Source of the DNA: Casimicrobiaceae bacterium
GTDB lineage: Bacteria > Pseudomonadota > Gammaproteobacteria > Burkholderiales > Casimicrobiaceae
Direction of reading: 5' to 3'
Length of the DNA: 64,000 bases
Assembly (NCBI GenBank): GCA_036506975.1
Contig: DASXQW010000384.1
Span: 125 to 64,124 of the forward strand
Below are positions 9,665 through 28,869 of this stretch, one piece after another (the first letter of the stretch is position 1; every line of letters begins with the position of its first letter). Below the pieces are notes generated by a model. That model was not told the origin of the DNA and searched no databases. It worked only from the letters and a program-made list of their open reading frames with translations. The translations under genes were made by a program, and so were the position numbers.

Positions 9665-10651
9665 CTAGGCGGCGACGCCGACGACGGCCGCGGCGGACGG
9701 CTGAGGCTTCTGCTCAGCGGTGCCCGCGGCGGCGCGCGGCACGTGCGCGGCAACCAGCGACGCCAGCACGCAGGCGGCCATGCGGACCTCCATCGATTCG
9801 CCGCGGCTGGACAAGACAACAGGGACTGTCGCGCCCAAGGTCACACCGGCCGCGAGCGCGCCAAACATGCCGGTAATCGCGCGCAGCAGCAGCGCGCCCG
9901 CCTCGAGCCCGGGCACGATAAGCACATCCGCGTGGCCGGCAACCTTCGACTCGACGCCGTTGGCGCGCGCCGCGGCGAGGGAAATCGCGCTGTCGGCAGT
10001 CAGCGGCCCGTCGACGGCTCCACCAGTGATCATGCCTTGCGCCGCCATCTTAGCGAGCGCTGCGGCATCCCCGGTAGCCGGCAGCGCCGGCGTCACGCCC
10101 TCAACCGCGCTTAAGACCGCGACCTGCGGTGTCGTGATACCAAGTGCGTGCGCAAAATGGATCGCGTTCTGGACGATGTCGCGCTTGGCAGCGAGCGTTG
10201 GCGCGATGTTCAGCACCGCGTCGGAGAGCACGAACGCGCGCGGGTAGCCGGGCACGTCGATGAAGAACGCGTGCGTCAGCCGACGCTCGCCGCGGAGCCC
10301 TGATTCGGGCGTGGCCACCGCGCGCATGAGGTCGTCGGGATAGAGGCTGCCCTTGATGAGCGCGCGGACTTCGCCGCTCTTGGCCAGCGCCACCGCGCGT
10401 TGTGCTGCCGCAAAGGGTTCGTCCGGGGTGTCGATGAGGTCGATTCGGGAAAGGTCCAGTCCCGCCTGCGCCGCGGCGTCGGCGATACGTTTTTCCGGCC
10501 CGACCAGCACCGGCGCCAGATAACCCGCAAATCGGCCCGACAACGCGATCTGCAGCGAATCGCTGTCGCAGGGGTAAACCATGGCCGCGGGTAGCGGCGG
10601 CAAGTTCCGCACCCGATCGACGAGCTTCTGGAAATGCGGGCGAACGACCAT
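9665..10651 (-). CDS. pta: Phosphate acyltransferase of the PTA_PTB family (phosphate acetyl/butyryltransferase-like), last gene of the taurine operon
   Basis: 328 aa. Matches the PTA_PTB core (GSLYPDDLMRAV..., LSDAVLNIAPT, ADVLIVPGLEAGALL). Lies downstream of tauC in the same orientation. Confidence 0.75.
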   Translation of the reverse strand: MVVRPHFQKLVDRVRNLPPLPAAMVYPCDSDSLQIALSGRFAGYLAPVLVGPEKRIADAAAQAGLDLSRIDLIDTPDEPFAAAQRAVALAKSGEVRALIKGSLYPDDLMRAVATPESGLRGERRLTHAFFIDVPGYPRAFVLSDAVLNIAPTLAAKRDIVQNAIHFAHALGITTPQVAVLSAVEGVTPALPATGDAAALAKMAAQGMITGGAVDGPLTADSAISLAAARANGVESKVAGHADVLIVPGLEAGALLLRAITGMFGALAAGVTLGATVPVVLSSRGESMEVRMAACVLASLVAAHVPRAAAGTAEQKPQPSAAAVVGVAA

Positions 10652-15118: not shown

Positions 15119-15337
15119 CGTGGTCTCCTCCTGCGGCAAGAGCCGGGGCGGCCGAGAGCTCGGCCGCGGGACAGCCCCTTTGTAGCCCCAATGCGCCGTC
15201 GCGGCTAGAGCCAGTTGTCGGCGCAGCGGTGGGCCAGGGCCGGCGATTTGCCGAGTCGGACGCACATGCGGCATGATGCACCGACGCCGGAACGGCTAGT
15301 CTTAGCCGCGAATCTAGCCCCAGCCCGCTCGCCTCGC

Positions 15338-16852
15338 ATGTCACGCTCTCAAGCACCGATGTGGAACCAGCTGATCCAGCTCACGTTCAAGAGCCAGATC
15401 AGCCTGCAGGCACAGATTCGCGAAATGCTAGTCGCGGCGATCCTCGACGGACACATCCCGGTCGGAGTGCCGCTGCCTTCGACGCGTGCGCTCGCCCAGC
15501 AGCTCGGAGTCGCCCGCAACACGGTCGCGCTCGCCTATGAATTGCTCGTCAACGAGGGCTATCTGCGGACCAAGAGCCGCAGCGGCCACTTCGTCAACGC
15601 CGAAATCCTCGCCGGCCGTGCGGCGCCGCGTCCCCGGCCGGCGGCGCTGCTGGACGCGCCCCCGGCGGCCGCTTGGGAAACGAGAATGCGCTTCTCGGTT
15701 TCGCGTCAGCGCAACATCGTCAAGCCCAAGGATTGGCAGAAATACCCGTATCCGTTCATCTACGGCCAGTTCGATCCGGCGCAGATACCTGTCCCCGGCT
15801 GGCGGGAATGCAGCATGCAGGCGTTGTCGACGGTCGAAGTCCGCGGCTGGGCCGGCGATCTTATCGACGGCGACGATACGCTGCTGGTCGAGCAGATCCA
15901 GACGCGGCTTCTCGGCCGGCGCGGCGTCTGGGCGGCGCCGGACGAGATCCTGGTCACCGTTGGCGCGCAGCATGCACTGTTTCTGCTCGCGACGCTCTTG
16001 GTCGGTACCGCGACAACCGTCGGCGTCGAGGATCCGGGCTATCCCGACGCGCGCAACATCTTCGCTGCGCGCACGCCCAGCGTTGTTGCGTTGCCGCTCG
16101 ACGGCGACGGTCTGGCGCTCTCGGCGGGACTCGACGCCTGCGAGTACGTGTACGTCACGCCTTCGCATCAATGCCCGACGAATGTGACCATGCCGCTCGA
16201 GCGGCGCGCGGCTTTGCTCGACTGGGCCGAGCGTCGAGACCGCGTATTGATCGAGGACGACTACGAGATCGAGCTGGGGTTCGAAGGGCGCGCGCAACCG
16301 GCGTTGAAGAGCCTCGATCGGACTGGCCGCGTTCTCTACGTCAGCAGCCTGTCGAAGACGCTGGCGCCCGGCATCCGGCTGGGATACATCGTCGCCAGCC
16401 GCGAGCTCATCCGCGAGTTGCGGGCTCTGCGGCGCTTGATGCTGCGCCACCCTGCGGCGAACAATGAGCGCTCGGTCGGGCTGTTCCTGGCGATGGGGTA
16501 TCACGATGCCTTGCTCCGCCGCCTCAAGCAGACCTACGCCGAGCGCGCGCCGGCGGTCGCTTCTGCGCTGGCAAGGCACCTGCCGGACGTGGCGTTCCGG
16601 ACTGTGGCCGGGGCGTCGTCGTTCTGGCTCAGATTCCCCGACGATGTCGATACCCGGGCGCTCGCGGCGGCCGCTGAGCGCCATGGCGTTTTGATCGAGC
16701 CGGGAGACGTGTTTTTCGCTACCGACCGACCGCCAAGAAACTACGCGCGTCTGGGCTTTGCATCCATTGCGAACGAGCGCATCGAGCCGGGCCTCGCTGC
16801 ATTGGCGGCGGCCTACGCGCAGGTCACCGCGACCCACGCTGCCGCGCGGTGA
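15338..16852 (+). CDS. tauR: MocR/GntR-family PLP-domain transcriptional regulator (TauR-like)
   Basis: N-terminal wHTH (STRALAQQLGVARNTVALAYELLVNEGYL) fused to an aminotransferase-like domain with SSLSKTLAPGIRLGY. The start may be ATG 15338 or 15359. Confidence 0.8.
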   Translation: MSRSQAPMWNQLIQLTFKSQISLQAQIREMLVAAILDGHIPVGVPLPSTRALAQQLGVARNTVALAYELLVNEGYLRTKSRSGHFVNAEILAGRAAPRPRPAALLDAPPAAAWETRMRFSVSRQRNIVKPKDWQKYPYPFIYGQFDPAQIPVPGWRECSMQALSTVEVRGWAGDLIDGDDTLLVEQIQTRLLGRRGVWAAPDEILVTVGAQHALFLLATLLVGTATTVGVEDPGYPDARNIFAARTPSVVALPLDGDGLALSAGLDACEYVYVTPSHQCPTNVTMPLERRAALLDWAERRDRVLIEDDYEIELGFEGRAQPALKSLDRTGRVLYVSSLSKTLAPGIRLGYIVASRELIRELRALRRLMLRHPAANNERSVGLFLAMGYHDALLRRLKQTYAERAPAVASALARHLPDVAFRTVAGASSFWLRFPDDVDTRALAAAAERHGVLIEPGDVFFATDRPPRNYARLGFASIANERIEPGLAALAAAYAQVTATHAAAR

Positions 16853-17662: not shown

Positions 17663-18211
17663 TTACAAGGTGCCGCCGCCGACTGTCCGGTTGCAGGGGC
17701 ATAGCTCGTCGGTTTGCAGTCCATCGAGCACGCGCAGCACTTCCTCGGGGCTGCGGCCGACATTGAGGTTGTTGACCGAGACGTGCTGGATCACGTTGTC
17801 GGGGTCGACGATGAACGTCGCGCGCAACGCTACGCCTTCCTTCGGATCTCGCACCCCGAGTTGATCGACCAGCGATCCGGTCACGTCGGCGAACTGCCAT
17901 TGGTTAAGGCTCTTCAGCTCCGCGTGATCGCGGCGCCACCCAAGCTTGGAGAACTCGTTGTCGGTCGAACCGCCGAGCACGACCGCATCGCGATCCTCGA
18001 AGTCCTTGGCGAGCTTGGCGAAGCCGACGATCTCGGTCGGGCAGACGAAAGTGAAGTCCTTGGGATAGAAGTAGATGACCTTCCATTTGCCCGGAAAGGA
18101 CCTTTCGTCGATCGGCGCGAAGGCCGATTCGCCGTTTTCCTCGTGGCGGTTGAAGCCGGGTTTCACACCGACGACGTTGAACGACTCAAGTTTCTGACCC
18201 ACGGTTTTCAT
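17663..18211 (-). CDS. ahpC: Peroxiredoxin AhpC (AhpD-dependent type)
   Basis: 182 aa with peroxidatic Cys motif DFTFVCPTE. Confidence 0.9.
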   Translation of the reverse strand: MKTVGQKLESFNVVGVKPGFNRHEENGESAFAPIDERSFPGKWKVIYFYPKDFTFVCPTEIVGFAKLAKDFEDRDAVVLGGSTDNEFSKLGWRRDHAELKSLNQWQFADVTGSLVDQLGVRDPKEGVALRATFIVDPDNVIQHVSVNNLNVGRSPEEVLRVLDGLQTDELCPCNRTVGGGTL

Positions 18212-18269
18212 GCGTTGCTCCTATCGTGGGCGGTGCCTGCGAAGGCGCCGCCGGTTGTCCAGGTTCTGG

Positions 18270-18360
18270 TAATGAGAACGATTCGTATATTATGGCGTTG
18301 CTAATGATAATTCAATTTGTTTATTATGATGACCTCATTAAGCATTCTTTATGAGCTTGC
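18270..18360. promoter_or_regulatory. AT-rich divergent promoter/operator region between ahpC and ald
   Basis: The stretch GTAATGAGAACGATTCGTATATTATGGCGTTGCTAATGATAATTCAATTTGTTTATTATGATGACCTCATTAAGCATTCTTTATGAG stands out against the GC-rich background. Confidence 0.5.
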
Positions 18361-18421
18361 TGCGGGCGCTAGTTAAACGCGCGACTTCGCGTTACCTTGT
18401 GGTGCAGCGGAGGAGAGCGAC

Positions 18422-19534
18422 ATGCGCGTCGGTGTGCCGAAGGAAGTCAAGGTATTGGAGAACCGGGTCGGATTGACGCCTGGAAGCGTGCGCGAAGCCG
18501 CTCATCTCGGCCACGAAGTGATCGTCGAGCACAATGCCGGGCAAGGCATCGGGATGGACGATGAGGCGTACCGCCGCGCGGGCGGCAGGGTCGTCGACAC
18601 CGCAGCGGAGGTATTCGCCGCCGCCGACATGATCGTCAAGGTCAAGGAGCCGCAGGCGAGCGAACGCAAGATGTTGCGCCAGGGCCAGGTGCTGTTCACA
18701 TACCTGCATCTGGCGCCCGATCCCGAACAGGCGAAGGACCTGATCGCCAACGGTGCGGTATGCATCGCGTACGAAACGGTGACCTCGCCGTCGGGCGGCC
18801 TACCGCTGCTCGCGCCGATGTCGGAGGTCGCCGGTCGCATGGCGGTCCAGGCAGGCGCGTACTACTTGGAAAAGCCGCACGGCGGGATCGGCATACTGCT
18901 CGGCGGCGTGCCGGGCGTCGATCCAGCTAAGGTGGTTATTCTCGGCGGCGGGGTGGTCGGCTCGCACGCCTGCCACATCGCGCTCGGCATGGGCGCCGAT
19001 GTGTGGGTCCTGGACCGCAGCGTCGACGTGCTGCGGGCGCTGTGGCGGCAGTTCGGCCGGCCGCTGAACACGGTCTATTCGACGCGCGACGCCGTGGAGC
19101 AGCACGTGACGACTGCCGATCTCGTCATTGGCGGCGTGCTCATCCCCGGGGCTTCGGCGCCAAAACTCGTCTCGCGCGAGCTGATCGCGCGGATGAAACC
19201 GGGCGCAGTTGTCGTCGACGTGGCGATCGATCAGGGCGGTTGTTTCGAAACGTCGCGACCCACGACGCATGCCGATCCGGTGTACGTCGTCGACGGCGTG
19301 ACGCATTACTGCGTGGCCAACATGCCGGGCGGCGTGCCGCGCACGTCGACGTTCGCGCTCAATAACGCCACGTTGCCGTTCGTGCTCGCGCTGGCGAACA
19401 AGGGCTGGCAGAAAGCGCTCGCCGACGACCGTCACCTCAAGAACGGCCTCAACGTCGCCTTCGGCAAGGTGACGTGCAAACCGGTGGCCGAGGCGCTGGG
19501 CTACAAATACGTCCCGCCGGAAGCGGTCATGTAG
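18422..19534 (+). CDS. ald: L-alanine dehydrogenase
   Basis: 370 aa. [20 protein letters not shown], Rossmann motif [31 protein letters not shown]. Classic Ald sequence. Confidence 0.95.
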
Positions 19535-19653
19535 CCCGGGTTGAGCGCCCTTCGACTTCGCTCTGGGCAGGCTTCGCGATACCTGGAGCGGCATCGCAGC
19601 GGAGCGTGCCCCCGGGCATCCCCTGGATCAAGTCCGGGATCAGCCCGGGCTAC
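19531..19653. repeat. MITE-like repeat, copy A (123 bp) with 14-bp terminal inverted repeats
   Basis: GTAGCCCGGGTTGA...TCAGCCCGGGCTAC. The ends are near-identical to copy B. The left TIR contains the ald TAG stop. Confidence 0.8.
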
Positions 19654-19755
19654 ACTGGCGACGCTGGCACTAACTGCGACCGTAGGCTGGCACCAGCCCG
19701 AGCCGCGACGCGCGGCGACAATGCAATCTGCAGCGGATCTTTGCGAGGAATCGAT

Positions 19756-21558
19756 ATGAACACCATGACTGAAACCAGGAATCTCGCGGTCGCCGGCAGG
19801 CAAAAGATGACGCCCTCGGAAGCGTTCGTCGAAACGCTCGTCGCGCAGCGCGTGACGGACGTATTCGGGATCGTGGGCTCCGCGTACATGGATGCGCTCG
19901 ATCTCTTTCCGCTGGCGGGAATACGCTTCATCTCGGTGGCGCACGAGCAGGGCGCGGGGCACATGGCCGACGGCTACGCCCGGGTGTCGGGCCGCCACGG
20001 CGTATGCATCGCGCAGAACGGGCCGGGCGTCACGAACTTCGTCACCTCGACCGCGGCGGCGTACTGGGCGCACTCGCCGGTGGTCGTCGTAACACCGGAG
20101 ACCGGGTCGACGACGCTCGGCCTGGGCGGATTCCAGGAGACCGAACAGCTGCCAATCTTCTCGAAGATCACCAAGTATCAGGCGCACGTGAACAACCGCG
20201 CGCGGATGGCCGAGCTGACGGCACGTGCCTTCGATCGCGCGCGGCTCGAGCTGGGGCCCACACAGCTCAACATCCCGCGCGACTTCTTCTACGGCGATAT
20301 CGAGTGCGAGATTCCGCGTCCGGTCGCCATCGAGCGCGGCGCTGGCGGAGAGCAGGCATTGAACGCGGCGGCCGAGCTTCTCGCCACAGCGCAGTTTCCC
20401 GTGATCCTCTGCGGCGGCGGCGTGATCATGGCCGATGCGCTGGCCGAAGCGATCCGCCTTGCCGAATTGCTGCAGGCACCCGTTTGCAATTCGTATCTGC
20501 ACAACGACTCGTTCCCGGCGGGGCACGCCCTGTGGTGCGGCCCGCTCGGCTATCAAGGCTCCAAGGCGGCGATGAAGCTGATCGCAAAGGCCGACGTCGT
20601 GCTCGCGCTGGGCACGCGGCTGGGTCCGTTCGGTACGCTGCCGCAACACGGCCTCGACTACTGGCCGAAGGATGCGCAAATCGTTCAAATCGACGCCGAC
20701 GCAAAGATGCTGGGCCTGGTCAAGCCGGTTTCGGTGGGCATCTGCGGCGATGCGAGGGCCGCGACGCTGGCGTTGATCGCGCGGCTGAGCGGCAGAACCC
20801 TCGCGTGCCAGGCGAACCGGGACACCCGCCTCGACGCGATCAGATGCGAGAAAGCCACGTGGGAGGCCGAGCTCGACGGCTGGTCGCACGAGACGGATGC
20901 GTGGTCGGTCGAAGTCGCGAAAGACTCGAGCCATATGCATCCGCGCCAGATGCTGCGCGAGCTCGAGCGCGCGATGCCCGATAACGCCATGGTATCGACC
21001 GACATCGGTAACATCTGCTCGGTCGCGAATTCGTATCTCCGCTTCGAGCGCCCGCGCTCGATGCTCGCGGCGATGAGCTTCGGCAACTGCGGCTACGCGT
21101 TTCCGACCATCGTCGGTGCCAAGGTGGCCGCGCCCGAGCGGCCGGCGATCGCCTACGTCGGCGACGGCGCGTGGGGCATGAGCTTCGGCGAGTTGCAGAC
21201 CTGTGTCCGCGAAGGCATTCCGGTCACCGCCGTCGTCTTCAACAACGGCCAATGGGGCGCGGAAAAGAAGAACCACGTCGATTTCTACGCCAAGCGCTTC
21301 GTCGGCGTGAATCTCGACAAGCAGCCGTCCTGGGCTGCCGTGGCGAAGGCGATGGGGGCGGACGGTCAGCGCGTCGACGCCCTGTCGGACGTCGGGCCGG
21401 CGTTGCGTGCTGCGGCCAAGGCACAGGGCGAGGGCAGGACGACGGTGTTGGAGATGATGGTCACGCGCGAGCTCGGCGACCCGTTCCGCCGCGACGCGCT
21501 GGCACTGCCGACACGGCATCTCGCGAAGTACAAGTCGACCGCGGCGCAGGCGGCGTAG
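19756..21558 (+). CDS. xsc: Sulfoacetaldehyde acetyltransferase (ThDP-dependent)
   Basis: The real start is MNTMTETRN (600 aa) within the 694-aa track ORF. N-terminus MTPSEAFVETLVAQRVTDVFGIVGSAYM..., QNGPGVTNF, ThDP motif GDGAWGMSFGELQ...VVFNNGQWG. Close to remembered Xsc sequences. Confidence 0.9.
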   Translation: MNTMTETRNLAVAGRQKMTPSEAFVETLVAQRVTDVFGIVGSAYMDALDLFPLAGIRFISVAHEQGAGHMADGYARVSGRHGVCIAQNGPGVTNFVTSTAAAYWAHSPVVVVTPETGSTTLGLGGFQETEQLPIFSKITKYQAHVNNRARMAELTARAFDRARLELGPTQLNIPRDFFYGDIECEIPRPVAIERGAGGEQALNAAAELLATAQFPVILCGGGVIMADALAEAIRLAELLQAPVCNSYLHNDSFPAGHALWCGPLGYQGSKAAMKLIAKADVVLALGTRLGPFGTLPQHGLDYWPKDAQIVQIDADAKMLGLVKPVSVGICGDARAATLALIARLSGRTLACQANRDTRLDAIRCEKATWEAELDGWSHETDAWSVEVAKDSSHMHPRQMLRELERAMPDNAMVSTDIGNICSVANSYLRFERPRSMLAAMSFGNCGYAFPTIVGAKVAAPERPAIAYVGDGAWGMSFGELQTCVREGIPVTAVVFNNGQWGAEKKNHVDFYAKRFVGVNLDKQPSWAAVAKAMGADGQRVDALSDVGPALRAAAKAQGEGRTTVLEMMVTRELGDPFRRDALALPTRHLAKYKSTAAQAA

Positions 21559-21678
21559 CCCGGGCCGAGCGCCCTTCGACTTCGCTCAGGACGGGCTTCG
21601 CGCGATGCCCGGGGCGACATCGCAATGAAACGCAGCCCGGGCATCCCCCGGATCAAATTCGGGGTCAGCCCGGGCTAC
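21555..21678. repeat. MITE-like repeat, copy B (124 bp)
   Basis: GTAGCCCGGGCCGA...TCAGCCCGGGCTAC. The left TIR contains the xsc TAG stop. The centre has diverged from copy A. Confidence 0.8.
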
Positions 21679-21680
21679 AC

Positions 21681-21710
21681 CAGAACACGTGGCATGGCAC
21701 AATTGTTCTG
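21681..21710. promoter_or_regulatory. Inverted repeat CAGAACA-N16-TGTTCTG upstream of the sauS-like operon
   Basis: Read directly from the sequence. It sits between repeat copy B and the sauS-like gene. Candidate operator; the regulator is unknown. Confidence 0.3.
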
Positions 21711-21828
21711 CTCCGCTCCGAAATCAACGAGAGACGTTCGATGACCCGCGCCCGCGCCACCGTTTTCTTGTTTCTCTCGGCGCTCCTGTGCGCAAGTCCG
21801 GCGCTCGCGAAGATCAAGGCTGAATGAC

Positions 21829-23289
21829 ATGGGCGGCAAGGACCGGCTACCGGTGACCGGCGATGCGGCGGCGACCATCGCCGCGCTCGTTGCCCGCGCG
21901 CGCGCCGCGCAGGCGACGGTCGACGCCGCGACGCAGGACGAGGTCGACGAGATCGTCACCGCAGCGGGCTGGGCAATCGTCGATCCGGAGCACAACCGCG
22001 CGCTCGCCGAGCTTGCGGTGACGGACACGGGGCTCGGCAACGTCAAAGACAAGATGGCGAAGAACCGCCGCAAGACGATGGGCCTCTTGCGCGACCTCGC
22101 GGGCGTCAAGTCAGTGGGCGTCATCGCGGAACTGCCTGAGAAAGGTCTCGTCGAGATCGCCCGGCCCGTCGGCGTCGTCGCGGCGATCACGCCTTCGACG
22201 AACCCCGCAGCCACTCCGGCCAACAACATCATCAACGCGCTGAAAGGTCGGAACGCGATCATCGTCGCGCCCTCGCCCAAAGGGGCGTCGACGCTGTCGC
22301 TGCTGCTCGCGTACATCCATGCCGAGCTCGACCGCGTCGGTGCGCCGCTCGATCTCGTGCAGCAGGTACCCTCGCCGGTGACGCGCGAGATGACCGCGGA
22401 GCTGATGCGCCAGGCCGACCTGGTCGTCGCCACGGGCTCGCAGACCAACGTGCGCGCGGCTTACGCGAGCGGCACGCCGGCGATCGGTGTGGGCGCCGGG
22501 AACGTCGCGGTCATCGTCGACGAGACCGCCGACCTCGCGGATGCGGCGGACAAGATCGCGCGCTCCAAGACTTTCGACAACGCGACCAGCTGCTCGTCGG
22601 AGAACAGCGTTATCGCCGTCGAAGAGATCGCGGATGCCCTGCTTGCCGCGCTCTCTGCCACAGGCGGTGTCGTGCTCGACGAAGGCGAAGCGCGTCAGCT
22701 CGAGCGCGCGATGTTCGCCGCCGGCCGGCCCGGGTCGACGTTCGTTGCCCAGGACGCACCGGCGATCGCTCTGCGCGCCGGGCTTGCGCGCCCCGCGCTG
22801 CTGGACGCGCGTTTCCTGATCGTTGCCGAGACCGGGGTCGGCGAGGCGCATCCTTTTTCGGGCGAGAAGCTCTCGCCCGTGCTCACGTTCTACCGCGCCG
22901 CCGACTTTGCCGCCGCTACGGCGTTGGCGGAGCGGCTGCTGCGCTATCAGGGAGCCGGTCATTCCATCGGGCTGCATACGCGCGATGAAAAGCGCGCGCT
23001 CGCACTGGGACTCACGCTGCCGGTATGCCGCGTGATCGTCAATCAGGCGCACTGCTTCGCGACGGGAGGCTCGTTCGACAACGCGTTGCCGTTCTCGCTG
23101 TCGATGGGCTGCGGAACCTGGGGCCGCAACAGCATCTCGGACAACCTGAATTACCGGCACTTCCTCAACATCACGCGGGTCGTGCGGCCGCTCGCGCCCG
23201 AGCTCGTGAGCGAACCGACCGAGGAAGCCCTGTTCGGCACCTATCTGCGCAAGTACGCACGCAAATCCGGGCGCCGCTCCGGCGCTTAA
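21829..23289 (+). CDS. sauS: CoA-acylating aldehyde dehydrogenase, sulfoacetaldehyde dehydrogenase (acylating) candidate
   Basis: 486 aa, SucD/PduP/EutE-like (VVAAITPSTNPAATPANNIINALKGRNAII). Catalytic Cys in FDNATSCSSENSV. Position is directly after xsc and before an AMP-forming ligase. Confidence 0.7.
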   Translation: MGGKDRLPVTGDAAATIAALVARARAAQATVDAATQDEVDEIVTAAGWAIVDPEHNRALAELAVTDTGLGNVKDKMAKNRRKTMGLLRDLAGVKSVGVIAELPEKGLVEIARPVGVVAAITPSTNPAATPANNIINALKGRNAIIVAPSPKGASTLSLLLAYIHAELDRVGAPLDLVQQVPSPVTREMTAELMRQADLVVATGSQTNVRAAYASGTPAIGVGAGNVAVIVDETADLADAADKIARSKTFDNATSCSSENSVIAVEEIADALLAALSATGGVVLDEGEARQLERAMFAAGRPGSTFVAQDAPAIALRAGLARPALLDARFLIVAETGVGEAHPFSGEKLSPVLTFYRAADFAAATALAERLLRYQGAGHSIGLHTRDEKRALALGLTLPVCRVIVNQAHCFATGGSFDNALPFSLSMGCGTWGRNSISDNLNYRHFLNITRVVRPLAPELVSEPTEEALFGTYLRKYARKSGRRSGA

Positions 23290-23305
23290 AGCAGCGCGAG
23301 GCACG

Positions 23306-24826
23306 ATGCGTACGTTCCGCGATGCGATCGACGCGCACGCCGTCGCGCGCCCCGACGCGCCTTGCGTCATCGCCCCGGAGCCCGAAGCAGTCCTGACCTA
23401 CGGCGATCTCGCGCGAATCGGCGCAGAGCTCGGCGCCTTCCTGGCGCAGCAGGGGATCGCGCCGGGAACGGTCGTATCGTTCATGCTGCCCAACGGCGTG
23501 GCGGCCGCGAGCATTTTCCTGGGCGCAATGTATGCGGGTTACATCATCTCGCCGGTCAACCTGCTCGCGCAGGACACGCAGCTCGAATATACGCTTGCGC
23601 ACTCGGGCACGCGGCTCATCTTCGCCGCGCCGGAATTTGTCGACCGGTTACGCGCGCTGCTTCGCCGCACGAACCATCCGGCGCTCGTGCACGCGACCGG
23701 CGCCGACCGCCTGGAGCTGTCGGAGGAGCCGGCGGCGCCGCTCGCCGCAGTCGATCCGCACACGCCGGCGATGCTCATGTACACCTCAGGCACGACCGGA
23801 GAGCCGAAGGGCGTACTGCTGTCGCACTGGAACCTGATCTACGCCGGGCGCGTCGTCGCCGAAGCGCTGGCGCTGCGCGCGGAAGATCGCGTGCTTTCTT
23901 CCTTGCCGCTTTATCACATCAACGGCCAAAGCATCGCGACGGTCAGCCCCGTCGTGTCGGGCGGCAGCATCGTGATGCCGCACCGGTTCAGCGCGTCGCA
24001 GTGGTGGCCGCTGGTCGAGCGTTATCGTCCGACCTGGCTCAACATGGTGCCGACGATCATCGCCTATCTCCTCAACGGCCCGGAGCTCACGCCGTCGCAG
24101 GCCGGGGCGTGTCGTGCGCTTCGCTTCGGCCGGACGGCTTCCGCGCCGCTGCCGCTCGAGCAGCACCGCGCGTTCGAGGCGCGCTTTGGAATCTCGGTCA
24201 TCGAGGCGATGGGGCTGACCGAGACCGCCTCGATCGCGTTCGCCAATCCACTCGATCCCAAAAAGCGAAAATACGGCTCCGCCGGTGTGCCGTTGGGGGT
24301 GGAGGCGCGCGTTGTCGCCGCCGATGGCGCCGTGCTCGGCGCGGGCGAGCAGGGCGAGATCGAGCTCCGCGGTGAGGCCGTGATGACAGGCTATTACCGC
24401 AACGCGGAGCTCACCGCCCAGGTGCTCTCGCCCGACGGCTGGCTTGCCACGGGCGATCTCGGCTATCGGGACGGCGATGGTTTTTATTTCATCACCGGCA
24501 GGCGCAAGGAGCTGATCATCAAGGGCGGCGAGAATATTGCGCCGCGCGAGATCGACGAGGCGCTGCTCTCCCACCCGGCGGTACTCGAGGCCGCGGCGGT
24601 CGGCATTCCCGATTCGAATTACGGCCAGGACATCCTCGCCTGCATCGTCCTCAAACCGGGGGCATGTTGCGACGAAGCGGAATTGCGCGCGCATTGTCTG
24701 ACGCAACTCGGACGGTACAAGACGCCGCGTCTGCTCCGCTTCGTCGCCGCGCTGCCCAAGGGTCCCTCGGGCAAGGTGCAGCGCCTGAAGCTCGCCGCGC
24801 TGAGAGGAGAAGGCGATGACGAATGA
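23306..24826 (+). CDS. sauT: AMP-forming acyl-CoA ligase, sulfoacetate-CoA ligase candidate
   Basis: 506 aa. AMP-binding motif LMYTSGTTGEPKGVLLSH, GDLGYRDGDGFYFITGRRKELII, C-terminal PKGPSGKVQR. Confidence 0.65.
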   Translation: MRTFRDAIDAHAVARPDAPCVIAPEPEAVLTYGDLARIGAELGAFLAQQGIAPGTVVSFMLPNGVAAASIFLGAMYAGYIISPVNLLAQDTQLEYTLAHSGTRLIFAAPEFVDRLRALLRRTNHPALVHATGADRLELSEEPAAPLAAVDPHTPAMLMYTSGTTGEPKGVLLSHWNLIYAGRVVAEALALRAEDRVLSSLPLYHINGQSIATVSPVVSGGSIVMPHRFSASQWWPLVERYRPTWLNMVPTIIAYLLNGPELTPSQAGACRALRFGRTASAPLPLEQHRAFEARFGISVIEAMGLTETASIAFANPLDPKKRKYGSAGVPLGVEARVVAADGAVLGAGEQGEIELRGEAVMTGYYRNAELTAQVLSPDGWLATGDLGYRDGDGFYFITGRRKELIIKGGENIAPREIDEALLSHPAVLEAAAVGIPDSNYGQDILACIVLKPGACCDEAELRAHCLTQLGRYKTPRLLRFVAALPKGPSGKVQRLKLAALRGEGDDE

Positions 24827-25961
24827 AGACACCGAAAAGATCGAACTCCATCGCGGGCTCAAGGGGGTGTACTTCGATCGCTCGCGCGTCTGCTTCATCG
24901 AGGGGCGCAGGGGCGAACTGCTCTACCGCGGCTATTCGATTCACGATCTCGCCGAGCGCTCCACCTTCGAGGAGGCCTGCTATCTGCTGCTCAAGGGGGA
25001 ATTGCCGGAGCGGGCCCAGCTCGAGGCCTTCGAGGCCGAGTTGAAGTCGGCGCGCATGCTGCCCGCGGCGGTGTACGACATCATCGGCACGGTGCAGCGC
25101 GCGCACCCGATGGACGTGCTGCGCACGGCGGTGTCGGCGCTCGCCGCCTTCGACCCGGAGGTCGCGGACAAATCGCCGGAAGCGACTCTGCGCAAGGGGG
25201 TGCGGCTCACCTCGCAGGTGCCGATGATCGTCGCTGCGCACGAACACATCCGCAACGGCCGCGCGCCGGTGCCGCCCGAACCGAGTCTCGGGCACGCCGC
25301 CAATTTCCTCTACATGTTGAAGGGCAAGGCGCCGAGTGCCGACGCTGCACGGCTGATGGATACCGACATGATCCTGCACGCCGAGCACGGCTCGAACGCA
25401 TCGTCGTTCACTGCGCGCGTGGTAGCCGGCACCGAGGCCAACCTGCACGCCGCCGTCACTGCGGCGATCGCAGCGCTCTCCGGACCGGCTCACGGCGGCG
25501 CGGCCGAGAACGTAATGCGCATGGCGCAGGAGATCGGCGACGCCTCGAAGGCGGGCGATTACGTGCGGCGCAAGCGTGCCAACAAGGAGCCGGTGATGGG
25601 GTTCGGCCACCGCGTCTACCGCGCTGAGGATCCTCGCGCGCGTCACATGCGCGCCGGCGTGGAGCGGCTTTCCCATGAAATGGGCCAGCCGCAGTGGTAC
25701 CAGATTCTCGAGGCGCTGGTCGAGGCGATGAAACCCTACGCGCGCCACGGCGTTAACGTCAACGTGGATTTCTACGCCGGGGTGGTCTACTTTCTGAACG
25801 ACATCGCCGCGGACCTGTTCGTTCCGATCTTCGCCGTCGGCCGCGTGCCCGGCTGGACGGTGCAGGTGCTCGAGCAGATGGAGAACAACATTCTGATCCG
25901 TCCGCTCACGCTCTACAGCGGCCCCGGGCCCCGCGCCTACGTGCCGATCGAAAAGCGCTAG
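24816..25961 (+). CDS. Citrate synthase / 2-methylcitrate synthase family enzyme (short type)
   Basis: 381 aa. Catalytic-triad contexts are present (SGPAHGGAAE, GFGHRVYRAEDPR, NVDFYAG). The 11-nt overlap with sauT implies translational coupling. Confidence 0.85.
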   Translation: MTNEDTEKIELHRGLKGVYFDRSRVCFIEGRRGELLYRGYSIHDLAERSTFEEACYLLLKGELPERAQLEAFEAELKSARMLPAAVYDIIGTVQRAHPMDVLRTAVSALAAFDPEVADKSPEATLRKGVRLTSQVPMIVAAHEHIRNGRAPVPPEPSLGHAANFLYMLKGKAPSADAARLMDTDMILHAEHGSNASSFTARVVAGTEANLHAAVTAAIAALSGPAHGGAAENVMRMAQEIGDASKAGDYVRRKRANKEPVMGFGHRVYRAEDPRARHMRAGVERLSHEMGQPQWYQILEALVEAMKPYARHGVNVNVDFYAGVVYFLNDIAADLFVPIFAVGRVPGWTVQVLEQMENNILIRPLTLYSGPGPRAYVPIEKR

Positions 25962-25967
25962 GTCTGC

Positions 25968-26870
25968 TCAGGACTGGGCGAGAACGATCGCGGCGGTGGC
26001 GACGATGTCCTCCACGCTCGCGCCGCGTGACAGGTCGCTCAAGGGTCGCGCAAAGCCCTGCAGCACCGGTCCGATGGCTTGCGCTCCGCCCAGGTACTGG
26101 CTGAGCTTGTAGGCGATATTGCCGGCATCGAGGTCGGGGAAGACGAGCACGTTCGCCCTTCCCGCGACCGGCCCGGCTTCCTTCAGCTTCTTCGCCGCGA
26201 CTGAGGGAATCAGTGCCGCATCGGCCTGCAGCTCGCCGTCGATCGCGAGCGAAGGTGCCCGACGGCGCGCAATCTCCAACGCGCGAACCACCTTCTCGAT
26301 GTGAGGGTGCTTGGCGCTCCCTTTGGTGGAGAACGAGAGTAGCGCGACGCGCGGCTCCTCGCGCAGCAGCCGGCGGCAACTTTCCGCCGACGCCAGCGCG
26401 ATGTCGGCGAGCTGCTCGGGGGTCGGGTCGGCGTTCACCGCGCAATCGGCAAAGACGAGGACCCGGTCCCGAAAGACCATGAGGAAGAAGCTCGAAGGCG
26501 TGTCGATACCCGGCGCAAGACCGATCGTCATCATCCCCGCCTCGATCACCCGCGCGGTCGGGGCCGCGACCCCGGCCACCATGGCATGCGCATCGCCCGC
26601 CTTCACCATCAGCCCGGCATGAAACAGCGGCTTCGCGGCCAGCCGCCGCGCCACCTTCGGGTTCGTGTCCGGACGGTGCTGCAGGTAAAGCGCAGCATAC
26701 GCATCGAGCCGGTCGCTCGATTCCGGGTTCGCCGGAAGAATCGGGTCGGCGAGGTCCTCGTCGCGCAGGCGGCGTGCCGCGGCGAGGATCCGCTCGTCCT
26801 CTGCTTCCGGGAACACGACCCGTAAGCCGCGGCCTCGGATCTGCGCCAGACAGGTTTCGACAATACTCAT
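25968..26870 (-). CDS. pta: Phosphate acetyltransferase (short Pta)
   Basis: 300 aa. [58 protein letters not shown]. Convergent with the xsc-sauST operon. Confidence 0.9.
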
Positions 26871-26932
26871 GGAAAAGCAGATTCCATGCAGAGCCGTATG
26901 AGCGACTTTGTTGCTCGGCCTCTCTCGGGAGG

Positions 26933-27643
26933 CTAGGCCGCTATCTTGCGCGAGCGCTCGCGCAGGATCTCCCGAATCGCTTCCTGCGATCCGGTAACGA
27001 GCTGTCGCATCGCCTGTTCGGCCATCGCGGTATCCCGCGTCTCGATCGCGCGAACGAGCCGCCTCCAGCCCTGCGCCGATTTGCGGCGCCGCTCGACGCC
27101 GCGCAGCGACAGCCGCGTGTAGCGCGCGACCTGTTCCGAAAACGAACGGATCAGCGCTGCGAGCCGCTCGCTGCCGGCGCCTTCGGCGATCAACTGCGAC
27201 AGCGCGTACACCGCCTCGAAATATCTGCCGTGGCTCGCGTCGGACGTGTGTTGCACGGCTTGGGCGAGCAGCGTTCGTGCCTCATCGAGCAGACCAGGAT
27301 CCGCCCGGGCGGCGACGCGCCGTGCCGCGACGGCGAGCAGGCTCGCCCGGATCTCGTAGAGGTCGTCGACCTCGTCGGCCGATAGCTGGGTGACGCTCGC
27401 GCCGCGGCGCGGTTCGATCCACACCAGCCCGCGCTTGTCGAGAAGACGAAGCGCTTCGCGGATCGACGCGCGACTGACACCGTACATCGTCGCCAGATCC
27501 ACCTCCTTGAGCCTGGCGCCCGAGGCAAACCGCTCGTTCAGGATCTCGTCGGCGATGCGCTGCGCAACCTGCTCGGAGAGCGTGAGGAACAGCGCCGTGT
27601 CGGCCGCCACGATCTGAACATCGGGCGCTTTTCGTCTTGGCAT
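26933..27643 (-). CDS. GntR-family (FadR/FCD subfamily) transcriptional regulator
   Basis: The likely start is MPRRKAPDV (236 aa) inside the 275-aa track ORF. w[28 protein letters not shown] plus an all-helical C-terminal domain. Confidence 0.85.
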
Positions 27644-27743
27644 CGTCGTCCTGTCCGTGAGCGTTCCGCCGACCGACGGCCGGCTTGCGTCGTGCGCGTT
27701 CCAGCCGGCAACGCCACGAGCCTGCGCAAGTCGACCCGATTTC

Positions 27744-27766
27744 TGTATGAATGTCGACATTATACA
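27744..27766. promoter_or_regulatory. Candidate GntR operator
   Basis: Perfect 12-bp palindrome AATGTCGACATT (27750-27761) flanked by TGTATG/ATACA. It fits the GT-N-AC core of GntR/FadR operators and lies in the divergent GntR/dctP spacer. A TATAGT -10-like hexamer follows. Confidence 0.5.
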
Positions 27767-27822
27767 CCCAGCGCAGTATAGTGGGCGCTCAAACGCGTCA
27801 GTCCGCTAGAGAGGAGAACGTC

Positions 27823-28869
27823 ATGAAGCAGCTCAAATCCCTGTTGCCGATGGTCGCGCTCGCCGCGTTCGTGATCGCCGGCGTCGATGACGCAGGCGCG
27901 CAGCAGCCGGTGCGCCTGACCGCCGCGACCGGCATCGCGCCCACGGTGCCGACGGCTTGGTGGTTCAGCGATTACATCGGGCCCAAGCTCAAGGAATACT
28001 CCAGCGGACGGATCGCGCCGAACGTCCAGATCAATGGCACGCTGTGCAACGAGCACAAGTGCGTCGAGCAGGCTCGGCTCGGTCAGATCGACATCGGGTC
28101 GGTCTCGGGCGGCAACATCGGCTCGTTCGGACACACGTTCGACATCCTCAACCTGCCCTACATCTTCAAGGACGATGCCGCGGCTGAGAAGCTGATCAAC
28201 GGCTGGCTCGGCGAGGAGCTCAAGAAGCGCGCGGAAAAGGAGATGGGCCTGCATGTGCTCGCGATCATTCCTTCGTACAGTTTCCGGAATATCGACAACT
28301 CGAGGCGCGAGATCCGCGTCCCGGGTGACATGGCGGGCATCAAGTTCCGAGTCACCAAGACGGAAGTCGAGCTGACGCTGATCAACACCTGGGGGGGCAC
28401 CGCGGTCCCGTACGACTGGGGTCAGCTCTACGAGGGGCTGCAGACCAAGGTCGTCGACGGCATGTACATCCCGGACGCCTACGTCGCCGCGCAGAAGTTC
28501 TACGAGGTCGCGCCGTATATCACGAAGACGGGCGGCGGCTGGAACTCCCACATCATCTTCATGGACCTCAAGCGCTACCAGCAGCTTCCCGACTGGGCGC
28601 GCCAAGTCGTCGATCGCGTCGGCAAGGAAGTCGAGGCACGCGGCTTCGCGGTCGATGCCGAATGGATGGCGAAGTATACGAAGCAGCTCGAAGGCAAGGT
28701 GAAAGTCTACACGCCCACGGCGAGCGAGCTCAGTCTGTGGTATGCCGGCGCGCCGCCGGCGTGGCGTGCCGTGAGGAATACATACGACCCGGCGCTCGCA
28801 CGGCGCGCGCTGCAGGACCAGGGGCAGCAGGAGCTGATCGCGAAGCTCGAGCGGGTTGGCGCGCTCTAA
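27823..28869 (+). CDS. dctP: TRAP transporter substrate-binding protein (DctP family)
   Basis: Start MKQLKSLLPMVALAAF (signal peptide) after a GAGGAG RBS. DctP-like body, including an Arg in the conserved position (SYSFRNID) that binds substrate carboxylate in this family. Confidence 0.85.
   Translation: MKQLKSLLPMVALAAFVIAGVDDAGAQQPVRLTAATGIAPTVPTAWWFSDYIGPKLKEYSSGRIAPNVQINGTLCNEHKCVEQARLGQIDIGSVSGGNIGSFGHTFDILNLPYIFKDDAAAEKLINGWLGEELKKRAEKEMGLHVLAIIPSYSFRNIDNSRREIRVPGDMAGIKFRVTKTEVELTLINTWGGTAVPYDWGQLYEGLQTKVVDGMYIPDAYVAAQKFYEVAPYITKTGGGWNSHIIFMDLKRYQQLPDWARQVVDRVGKEVEARGFAVDAEWMAKYTKQLEGKVKVYTPTASELSLWYAGAPPAWRAVRNTYDPALARRALQDQGQQELIAKLERVGAL

What the first reader, a model, noticed from the sequence alone, without database searches (positions are those of the whole stretch)
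24816..25961. Citrate synthase paralog translationally coupled to the sulfoacetate-CoA ligase-like gene
Seen in the sequence: the 381-aa citrate/2-methylcitrate synthase-family ORF starts 11 nt before the sauT-like stop. It retains the His-His-Asp catalytic contexts (GPAHGGA, GFGHRVY, NVDFY).

Established knowledge: the described sulfoacetate pathway (SauT, SauS, Xsc, Pta) needs no citrate synthase. Citrate synthases can accept acetyl-CoA analogues, as in fluoroacetyl-CoA to fluorocitrate.

Two inferences are possible:
- It is a dedicated synthase that drains the acetyl-CoA made via Xsc/Pta into the TCA cycle.
- More interestingly, it condenses sulfoacetyl-CoA (the SauT product) or another analogue with oxaloacetate. 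That could be a side-branch, a detoxification reaction or a regulatory-metabolite-forming reaction.
Basis: partly seen in the sequence, partly recalled or inferred. Interest (0 to 1): 0.6.

Follow-up and report, generated by a model that had tools for sequence, protein, structure and literature searches.

The report
Accessory citrate synthase paired with Pta
This is a normal-looking third citrate synthase that travels with a phosphotransacetylase gene in uncultured soil and groundwater Betaproteobacteria that break down C2-sulfonates, most likely feeding the resulting acetyl units into the TCA cycle; nothing indicates a new sulfoacetyl-CoA reaction.

Summary
A 381-aa citrate synthase ORF ("CS3", 24816-25961, +) overlaps the stop of the upstream AMP-ligase by 11 nt, and its catalytic motifs are intact.

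- **Not the only citrate synthase.** The genome also has GltA and PrpC. CS3 is a separate dimeric type-I lineage: 36-37% identical to both, and 48% to Thermus citrate synthase.
- **The stable partner is Pta, not sauT.** A convergent Pta lies within 1.5 kb in 53 of 70 related loci with enough DNA. A SauT-like ligase is nearby in 8 of 79, and in none of the 79 does it lie directly upstream on the same strand.
- **The overlap is recent.** It arose from a 128-nt deletion; a relative with 94% CS3 identity still has the spacer.
- **Genome-level link to sulfonate catabolism.** All 13 CS3 carriers among 301 sampled genomes of the order also carry Xsc and SauS.
- **Ordinary active site.** Every catalytic, oxaloacetate-binding and acetyl-CoA-pocket residue checked is invariant and canonical.

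Best reading: sulfoacetaldehyde goes through Xsc to acetyl phosphate, Pta makes acetyl-CoA, and CS3 makes citrate. Other first readers in this scan noted similar Xsc/Pta/citrate synthase groupings on other genomes (unchecked notes).

The finding is real but ordinary, of low to moderate interest.

The parts
24816..25961 (+). CS3: accessory dimeric-type (type I) citrate synthase, 381 aa
   Evidence: PF00285 at 408.9 bits and TIGR01800 at 440.7 bits, above the 421.3 cut-off. Closest solved structure is T. thermophilus citrate synthase 1IOM, 48% identity. It forms its own clade at 100/100 support, apart from GltA and PrpC. The 12 catalytic and substrate-binding motif positions checked are invariant in all 81 sequences.
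25968..26870 (-). Pta, phosphate acetyltransferase, 300 aa. Convergent with CS3, with 6 nt between the two stop codons. This is the conserved partner.
   Evidence: PF01515 at 330 bits and NF007233 at 314 bits, above the 310 cut-off. A convergent Pta lies within 1.5 kb of CS3 in 53 of 70 related loci, and within the fetched flank in 59 of 70. CS3 and Pta pairwise identities correlate (Spearman 0.54, 57 loci).
23306..24826 (+). AMP-forming acyl-CoA ligase, SauT-like, 506 aa. Its last 11 nt overlap the CS3 start.
   Evidence: PF00501 and PF13193 match, but no specific NCBIfam model reaches its cut-off. A ligase at 49% identity or more lies next to SauS in the related loci that carry both. JGI names some homologs 'sulfoacetate-CoA ligase'. 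The overlap came from a 128-nt deletion relative to L144.
21829..23289 (+). SauS, acylating sulfoacetaldehyde dehydrogenase, 486 aa
   Evidence: NCBIfam NF047625 equivalog at 734.3 bits, cut-off 600.
19756..21558 (+). Xsc, sulfoacetaldehyde acetyltransferase, 600 aa. It is the source of acetyl phosphate and sulfite.
   Evidence: TIGR03457 at 940 bits, cut-off 676. It is the only copy in the genome. Start codon at 19756, preceded by GAGGA.
18422..19534 (+). Ald, alanine dehydrogenase, first gene of the ald-xsc-sauS-ligase-CS3 string
   Evidence: TIGR00518 at 505 bits, cut-off 392. A promoter-like site lies at 18298-18327 (consensus match only).
9665..10651 (-). Second, different Pta-family gene (328 aa) at the end of the taurine uptake/aminotransferase operon
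   Evidence: PF01515 match at window 9764-10399 (after removing the contig offset of 124). Relatives of it sit upstream of CS3 in some other genomes, in the order Pta2-AckA-CS3.

Best explanation
CS3 is a bona fide acetyl-CoA:oxaloacetate citrate synthase of the small dimeric type. With its convergent Pta it forms a two-gene accessory module that turns acetyl phosphate into citrate.

In this genome the module ends the C2-sulfonate pathway:
1. Taurine (through the aminotransferase and Ald) and sulfoacetate (through the SauT-like ligase and SauS) are converted to sulfoacetaldehyde.
2. Xsc splits sulfoacetaldehyde into sulfite and acetyl phosphate.
3. Pta makes acetyl-CoA.
4. CS3 condenses acetyl-CoA with oxaloacetate, which frees CoA and pulls the reversible Pta step forward.

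**Shown here:** enzyme family and intact catalytic machinery; presence of separate GltA and PrpC; conserved Pta pairing; frequent adjacency to xsc or ackA; genome-level co-occurrence with xsc and sauS; the recent origin of the overlap with the ligase.

**Inferred, not tested:** acetyl-CoA is the substrate. Because CS3 lacks the N-terminal domain of hexameric GltA, it would escape the NADH inhibition known for that type and give an unregulated entry for C2 units during growth on sulfonates or acetate.
For: - **Family and residues.** PF00285 and TIGR01800 score above their cut-offs. The nearest structures are true citrate synthases: Thermus 1IOM, then the S. tokodaii entry 1VGP (deposited as 'hypothetical citrate synthase') and Pyrococcus 1AJ8. 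The 12 motif positions checked are invariant in all 81 CS3 sequences. At the four positions where the local PrpC differs (Y, K, P, W), CS3 reads H188, A225, R266, F319, the same residues as GltA. The positions that correspond by motif offset to E. coli A267 and F383, which that paper shows matter for acetyl-CoA kinetics, are A229 and F339.
- **Paralogs.** GltA beside sdhB and a PrpC scoring 716 bits against a 550 cut-off are also present. All 10 other CS3 carriers examined also have both.
- **Neighbours in 79 other species-level loci.** Convergent Pta within 1.5 kb in 53 of 70. AckA nearby in 10, directly upstream on the same strand in 7. Xsc in 14. Ligase directly upstream on the same strand in 0.
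- **Same picture in metagenome contigs** at 84-90% identity.
- **Co-occurrence.** 13 of 13 CS3 carriers have Xsc, against 34 of 288 non-carriers. 13 of 13 have SauS, against 22 of 288.
- **C2 assimilation is possible.** The genome has one Xsc, an isocitrate lyase and an AckA.
Against: - No biochemical or expression data exist.
- About two thirds of the CS3-Pta loci show no acetyl-phosphate-forming enzyme within 10 kb, so the local link to Xsc or AckA is not universal.
- The co-occurrence comes from only six taxonomic families, and kin are not independent.
- 22 of the 35 SauS-carrying genomes sampled lack CS3, so it is not needed for the pathway.
- Substrate preference cannot be read with certainty from sequence.
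Confidence: 0.72

Rival explanations
1. CS3 is simply a second general-purpose citrate synthase. Its placement beside Pta and the sulfonate genes is inherited synteny or hitch-hiking on a mobile island, with no functional tie to sulfonate or acetyl-phosphate metabolism.
For: Many bacteria carry several citrate synthases. Most CS3-Pta loci have unrelated upstream genes, such as membrane proteins, transporters and zinc-ribbon proteins. Carriers come from only six families.
Against: The Pta pairing survives many different flanking contexts, and the pair sits next to xsc/sauST in at least four different arrangements. CS3 was found only in Xsc-positive and SauS-positive genomes, 13 of 13, with exact within-family concordance in three families: 4 of 6, 5 of 7 and 1 of 7.
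Confidence: 0.15
2. CS3 condenses sulfoacetyl-CoA, the SauT product, with oxaloacetate. This would be a side branch, a detoxification route or a signal-forming reaction.
For: In this species the gene is translationally coupled to the SauT-like ligase. All 13 CS3 carriers have SauS, slightly more than expected given Xsc alone: 13 of 13 against 21 of 34, p = 0.009 without correction for phylogeny.
Against: - The overlap is a recent 128-nt deletion.
- The ligase is near CS3 in only 8 of 79 loci and is never directly upstream on the same strand.
- Relatives run ald-xsc-sauS-ligase without CS3. One contig keeps the ligase but has CS3 truncated after about 33 codons.
- The pocket residues are canonical. 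The two apparent clade-specific alanines are common in ordinary type-I citrate synthases, and no new positive charge is visible for a sulfonate group.
- No gene for further metabolism of a sulfocitrate is apparent.
Confidence: 0.04
3. CS3 is a 2-methylcitrate synthase, or a broad-specificity synthase, used for propionyl-CoA.
For: The only NCBIfam model it passes is the mixed '2-methylcitrate synthase/citrate synthase II' subfamily. M. tuberculosis methylcitrate synthase is among the PDB hits at 279 bits.
Against: It scores 314 bits against a 550 cut-off on the proteobacterial PrpC equivalog. The genome's own PrpC scores 716. CS3 carries the GltA residues at the four motif positions where the local PrpC differs. 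None of the surveyed protein families in the fetched flanks is a prp gene, and its partners are acetyl-specific enzymes.
Confidence: 0.05
4. The pair runs in reverse: citrate is cleaved by CS3 to acetyl-CoA plus oxaloacetate, then Pta (and AckA) yield acetyl phosphate and ATP, as citrate synthase does in the reversed oxidative TCA cycle.
For: Some loci read Pta2-AckA-CS3 with a convergent Pta. Citrate synthase reversal is documented in some anaerobes, as in the abstract of PMC9768450 listed.
Against: The reaction is strongly unfavourable. In this window the upstream genes produce acetyl phosphate, which sets the direction towards citrate. The strict co-occurrence with Xsc fits the forward direction.
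Confidence: 0.03

Closest known systems
Dimeric type-I citrate synthases of Thermus thermophilus (PDB 1IOM/1IXE), Pyrococcus furiosus (1AJ8) and S. tokodaii (1VGP)
   Same: Same length class (about 375 aa). End-to-end alignment at 48%, 40% and 41% identity. Identical catalytic His-His-Asp and oxaloacetate-binding His and Arg residues.
   Different: CS3 forms a tight, isolated clade: 76-100% identity among its members, while the nearest other 50%-cluster representative is at most 58% identical. It occurs in Betaproteobacteria, where it is an extra copy beside the usual hexameric GltA.
The xsc-pta pairing of taurine, isethionate and sulfoacetate degradation, and the sauSTU sulfoacetate pathway of Cupriavidus necator H16 as summarised in PMC10413351 (the pairing itself is recalled knowledge)
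   Same: Xsc, SauS, a SauT-like ligase and Pta are all present. The chemistry up to acetyl phosphate, and the recalled Pta step to acetyl-CoA, is the described one.
   Different: The described pathways stop at acetyl phosphate or acetyl-CoA and name no citrate synthase. Here a dedicated citrate synthase travels with a second Pta. No paper in the held library mentions xsc, pta, taurine and citrate synthase together.
Extra citrate synthase paralogs in other bacteria (B. subtilis CitA/CitZ, M. tuberculosis CitA/GltA2/PrpC; from general knowledge)
   Same: Several citrate synthase family genes in one genome, with one serving as the housekeeping enzyme.
   Different: To my knowledge, those paralogs are not embedded at the end of a catabolic operon, and they lack a conserved, tightly convergent Pta partner.
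PrpC, 2-methylcitrate synthase of the methylcitrate cycle
   Same: Same protein family and similar size. PrpC is likewise a pathway-dedicated synthase encoded in a catabolic cluster.
   Different: CS3 fails the PrpC equivalog cut-off, is 37% identical to the genome's own PrpC, and differs at four motif positions.

Membership tests
Citrate synthase family (PF00285); small dimeric type (TIGR01800 subfamily) | Full-length domain match above the curated cut-offs | tested here: met
   PF00285 at 408.9 bits (cut-off 27), covering 1-356 of 357 positions. TIGR01800 at 440.7 bits against 421.3.
Citrate synthase family (PF00285); small dimeric type (TIGR01800 subfamily) | Catalytic His, His and Asp, plus the oxaloacetate-binding His and three Arg | tested here: met
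   H226, H265, D318, H191, R274, R343 and R362 are present and invariant in all 81 CS3 sequences.
Citrate synthase family (PF00285); small dimeric type (TIGR01800 subfamily) | Acetyl-CoA pocket residues equivalent to E. coli A267 and F383 | tested here: met
   A229 and F339, mapped by motif offset. In 134 diverse representatives these positions read A in 132 and F in 125.
Citrate synthase family (PF00285); small dimeric type (TIGR01800 subfamily) | Measured citrate synthase activity with acetyl-CoA and oxaloacetate | not testable with these tools
   Needs an enzyme assay.
Hexameric NADH-regulated GltA (type II; TIGR01798) | Score above the equivalog cut-off, and presence of the extra N-terminal domain | tested here: not met
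   245.6 bits against a 485 cut-off. CS3 is 381 aa and the genome's GltA is 434 aa, with 36% identity between them.
PrpC 2-methylcitrate synthase (NF009006) | Score above the equivalog cut-off, and clade membership | tested here: not met
   314.4 bits against a 550 cut-off. The two form separate 100/100 clades in the tree.
Sulfoacetate (sau) gene cluster | Conserved adjacency or co-transcription with sauS and sauT across genomes | tested here: not met
   SauS lies nearby in 9 of 79 loci and the ligase in 8 of 79, with none directly upstream on the same strand. Relatives have the sau genes without CS3.
Sulfoacetate (sau) gene cluster | Genome-level co-occurrence with sauS | tested here: met
   13 of 13 CS3 carriers have SauS, against 22 of 288 non-carriers. 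The carriers come from six families only.
Xsc/Pta acetyl-phosphate module of C2-sulfonate catabolism | Adjacency to pta and co-occurrence with xsc | tested here: met
   Convergent Pta within 1.5 kb in 53 of 70 loci. Xsc is in 13 of 13 carriers and within 10 kb in 14 of 79 loci.
Xsc/Pta acetyl-phosphate module of C2-sulfonate catabolism | Induction by taurine, sulfoacetate or isethionate | not testable with these tools

The most novel reading that the evidence does not exclude
CS3 has a specialised property that the housekeeping GltA lacks. One form would be acceptance of sulfoacetyl-CoA to make a sulfocitrate. A milder form would be an NADH-insensitive, sulfite-tolerant synthase that keeps the TCA entry open while Xsc releases sulfite. 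The probability and interest given here are for the sulfoacetyl-CoA reading. The sequence data make that reading unlikely but cannot exclude it without kinetics.
Probability: 0.04. Interest if true: 0.8.

Novelty: new member of a known kind. Interest (0 to 1): 0.3.

Why it matters
Descriptions of Xsc-dependent sulfonate degradation stop at acetyl phosphate or acetyl-CoA. This analysis shows that a group of uncultured soil and groundwater Burkholderiales add a dedicated citrate synthase plus a second Pta, which takes the pathway one step further into central metabolism.

Three practical consequences follow:
- It gives an annotation rule: this clade next to a convergent Pta, in genomes that carry xsc and sauS.
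- It shows that operon adjacency in a single genome can mislead.
- It offers a simple case for testing why bacteria with an allosteric GltA keep an unregulated small citrate synthase.

It does not point to new chemistry.

Tried and rejected
- **Clade-specific residues near the active site.** A230 and A321 looked unique against a small reference set. They are common among 134 diverse type-I citrate synthases, at 20 and 51 of 134, so I dropped them as evidence for an altered pocket.
- **Palindromic operator.** Earlier notes from the scan reported TCTC-N7-GAGA between citrate synthase/pta and xsc/tctC regions in other genomes. It occurs 19 times in 1.26 Mb of my loci, about the chance level, and not at all in the window.
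- **Promoter and terminator scan of 18000-28000.** Nothing above the shuffled background.
- **Pta N-terminus.** A suspected missing N-terminus turned out to be my own error over the 124-nt contig offset. The 300-aa ORF holds the whole domain.
- **Other acetyl-phosphate sources.** I looked for phosphoketolase or pyruvate oxidase upstream of CS3 in loci without xsc or ackA. By eye (no family search was run on them), the large upstream ORFs I sampled looked like unrelated proteins, several of them membrane proteins, with no phosphoketolase- or pyruvate-oxidase-like protein among them.
- **Papers not held.** The original sau and xsc papers (PMC2975148, PMC1223080) are not in the library.
Full report
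**1. What is in the sequence**

The ORF at 24816-25961 (+) encodes 381 aa. The upstream AMP-binding ligase ORF ends at 24826, so the two overlap by 11 nt (ATGACGAATGA). A purine-rich GAGAGGAGAAGG lies just before the ATG. Pfam Citrate_synt matches end to end at 408.9 bits, and NCBIfam TIGR01800 is passed at 440.7 against 421.3.

The surrounding genes, by Pfam and NCBIfam, are:
- a class-III aminotransferase (13775-15274, -)
- a MocR-type regulator (15215-16852, +)
- CMD/AhpD and AhpC (-)
- Ald (18422-19534, +)
- Xsc (19756-21558, +; 940 bits against a 676 cut-off; start fixed)
- SauS (21829-23289, +; 734 against 600)
- the ligase (23306-24826, +)
- CS3 (24816-25961, +)
- Pta (25968-26870, -), convergent, with 6 nt between the stop codons
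- a GntR-FCD regulator and an unrelated TRAP-linked operon

**2. It is a third, distinct citrate synthase**

The genome holds three full-length family members:
- a 434-aa protein beside sdhB that scores 784 bits on the GltA equivalog
- a 386-aa protein that scores 716 bits on the PrpC equivalog (cut-off 550)
- CS3, which fails both models, at 246 of 485 and 314 of 550

CS3 is 36-37% identical to the other two. The closest solved structures are the dimeric citrate synthase of Thermus thermophilus (349 bits, 48% identity), then S. tokodaii and Pyrococcus.

I built a maximum-likelihood tree of 37 sequences: the three paralogs of this genome, the paralogs of 13 related genomes, and four PDB sequences. 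It gives three clades at 100/100 support. CS3 sits beside the Thermus enzyme at 94/85; this is a meeting of long branches, so that placement is only indicative.

In an all-against-library search, the nearest other representatives at the 50% cluster level are at most 58% identical. CS3 sequences are 76-100% identical to each other. The clade is therefore tight and isolated.

**3. The active site is ordinary**

I aligned 81 CS3 sequences with the GltA, PrpC and PDB sequences.
- Invariant in all CS3 sequences: H191, H226, H265, R274, D318, R343, R362 and N194.
- At the four motif positions where the local PrpC clade differs (Y, K, P, W), CS3 has the GltA residues H188, A225, R266 and F319.
- The positions equivalent to E. 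coli A267 and F383 are A229 and F339. Substitutions at those E. coli positions cripple acetyl-CoA kinetics (PMC11278746, read).

Two alanines near the catalytic residues, A230 and A321, looked clade-specific at first. They are common among 134 diverse representatives. Nothing suggests a pocket built for a sulfonate group.

**4. The real partner is Pta**

Three metagenome contigs with CS3 at 84-89% identity all keep a convergent Pta but differ upstream. One has AckA divergent. One has a TRAP transporter plus a HisD-family dehydrogenase that overlaps CS3 by 8 nt. One has an IclR regulator.

I then fetched 80 loci from one-genome-per-species contigs and mapped the window's proteins onto them. One locus from the same species was left out, leaving 79.

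| Neighbour | Count |
|---|---|
| Convergent Pta starting within 1.5 kb | 53 of 70 loci with enough downstream DNA |
| Pta within the fetched flank | 59 of 70 |
| Xsc | 14 of 79 |
| IclR-type regulator | 11 of 79 |
| AckA | 10 of 79 (directly upstream, same strand, in 7) |
| HisD-like gene after a TRAP system | 9 of 79 |
| SauS | 9 of 79 |
| SauT-like ligase at 45% identity or more | 8 of 79 |
| Ligase directly upstream on the same strand | 0 of 79 |

The gap between the CS3 and Pta stop codons is often between -8 and +20 nt. Pairwise identities of CS3 and Pta correlate (Spearman 0.54 over 57 loci), as expected if the pair is inherited together.

**5. The overlap with the ligase is young**

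A contig with CS3 at 94% identity has the same gene order, ald-xsc-sauS-ligase-CS3 followed by the convergent Pta. It has a 128-nt spacer between the ligase stop and the CS3 start, and CS3 has its own ribosome-binding site there. The window, a same-species MAG (L034) and one further contig (L148) lack the spacer. In these the ligase reads three codons into CS3. The coupling is therefore a deletion product within one species group.

In L148, CS3 is cut after about 33 codons. The contig then continues with DNA that lies about 30.8 kb further on in the window, with the sau genes intact. The two sides of that junction match the window at 88% and 97% identity, so an assembly chimera cannot be excluded.

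Two relatives whose ligase is 73% and 79% identical (L147 and L146; the L147 contig is 4.3 Mb) carry ald-xsc-sauS-ligase, in L147 preceded by the MocR regulator and ahpCD. In both the next genes encode a molybdopterin enzyme with Fe-S and membrane subunits, possibly a sulfite dehydrogenase. There is no citrate synthase.

**6. The module belongs with sulfonate catabolism at genome level**

In a sample of 301 genomes of the same order:
- CS3 (E no greater than 1e-100; all hits at least 79% identical) occurs in 13, from six families, and in none of six other genomes of the window's own family.
- Xsc above its cut-off occurs in 47, and SauS in 35 at E ≤ 1e-150 (33 of them above its curated cut-off).
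- All 13 CS3 carriers have both.
- In three families the CS3 and Xsc carriers are exactly the same genomes: 4 of 6, 5 of 7 and 1 of 7.

Fisher tests give 7e-12 for Xsc and 7e-14 for SauS. Within Xsc-positive genomes the extra association with SauS gives 0.009. These values ignore relatedness and are indicative only. The extra SauS signal probably reflects which Xsc lineage these families carry.

Conversely, 22 of the 35 SauS-carrying genomes lack CS3, so it is an optional addition.

The pair also lies next to xsc/sauST in at least four different arrangements: co-directional, divergent from sauS, divergent from xsc with or without IclR, and downstream of xsc. This argues for repeated selection for proximity.

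**7. Mechanism proposed**

Xsc gives acetyl phosphate and sulfite. Pta gives acetyl-CoA. CS3 condenses it with oxaloacetate.

This genome has a single Xsc, four PTA_PTB-domain genes (the CS3-linked Pta; one ending the taurine operon; one beside AckA; and a match inside a 777-aa open frame, likely a malic-enzyme fusion), an AckA and an isocitrate lyase. Growth on C2 units is therefore plausible.

Why a separate synthase is kept is inference. The small dimeric type lacks the N-terminal domain of hexameric GltA. From established knowledge of the two types, it is not subject to NADH inhibition. It would provide an unregulated drain for acetyl-CoA and recycle CoA for both Pta and the ligase. The loci with AckA directly upstream of CS3 fit a general 'acetyl phosphate to citrate' role.

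**8. Comparison with the literature**

The described aerobic sulfoacetate pathway is SauT, SauS and Xsc giving sulfite and acetyl phosphate (PMC10413351, read); it names no citrate synthase, and that paper does not mention citrate. No paper in the held library combines xsc, pta, taurine and citrate synthase. The five papers that hold both 'sulfoacetaldehyde' and 'citrate synthase' were not seen to link the two; in the one I read (PMC9169050) they are unrelated, and the other four were judged from titles and abstracts. The two founding papers are not held.

Other first readers of this scan noted Xsc/AckA/Pta/citrate synthase groupings on other genomes. These are unchecked notes that agree with the survey here.

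**9. Verdict**

The gene is a canonical citrate synthase of an isolated accessory clade. Its fixed partner is Pta, and its wider company is the Xsc/Sau sulfonate gene set.

The sulfoacetyl-CoA idea has no support, and several observations count against it, although only kinetics can close it. None of the 80 best loci comes from a cultured isolate, which may explain why the module has not been described.

Interest is low to moderate.

Noticed in passing
L148:3397-3621 compared with window 24816-24914 and 55715 onward: A metagenome contig keeps sauS, the ligase and the first ~33 codons of CS3, including the 11-nt overlap. It then continues with the FAD/Fe-S gene pair (APS-reductase-like) that lies about 30.8 kb downstream in the window. 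This is either a large deletion variant or an assembly chimera: the left side is 88% identical to the window and the right side 97%.
   Followed up: partly
L146:8598-13176 and L147:8617-13208: In relatives whose ligase is 73-79% identical to the window's, the ald-xsc-sauS-ligase string is followed by a 962-aa molybdopterin enzyme, a 4Fe-4S subunit and a DmsC-like membrane subunit. This may be a SoeABC-type sulfite dehydrogenase. It takes the place that CS3-Pta holds in the window.
   Followed up: no
L007:657-6177, and 9 of the 79 loci (for example L046, L052, L095): A TRAP transporter and a HisD-family dehydrogenase are followed directly by CS3, overlapping it by 8 nt in L007. The dehydrogenase might be an HpsN-like sulfopropanediol dehydrogenase, but this was not tested.
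   Followed up: no
L040, L062, L067 (Pta2-like, AckA, CS3, convergent Pta); L047, L084, L100, L107 (AckA directly upstream of CS3): Several genomes place AckA directly upstream of CS3 on the same strand, and some have a second Pta-family gene before AckA. Together these look like an acetate-to-citrate operon.
   Followed up: partly
L144:11311-15807; also L089 and L108 upstream of CS3: In a close relative, the B12-binding/MutL-like/Met_asp_mut_E/enolase-type operon directly follows the CS3-linked Pta. In the window that operon lies at about 43-52 kb. By eye, the large ORFs upstream of CS3 in two further loci look like subunits of this B12 mutase (no family search was run on them). In the window, about 16 kb of other operons lie between.
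   Followed up: no
window 25962-25967, and the related loci: CS3 and Pta are packed tail to tail with -8 to about +20 nt between stop codons in many genomes. That leaves no room for separate terminators, so their transcripts probably overlap at the 3' ends. Whether this has a regulatory effect is unknown.
   Followed up: no
the 80 loci: None of the 80 best CS3 loci comes from a cultured isolate; nearly all are metagenome-assembled genomes and the rest are uncultured-bacterium assemblies, and several MAG names point to soil or groundwater.
   Followed up: no
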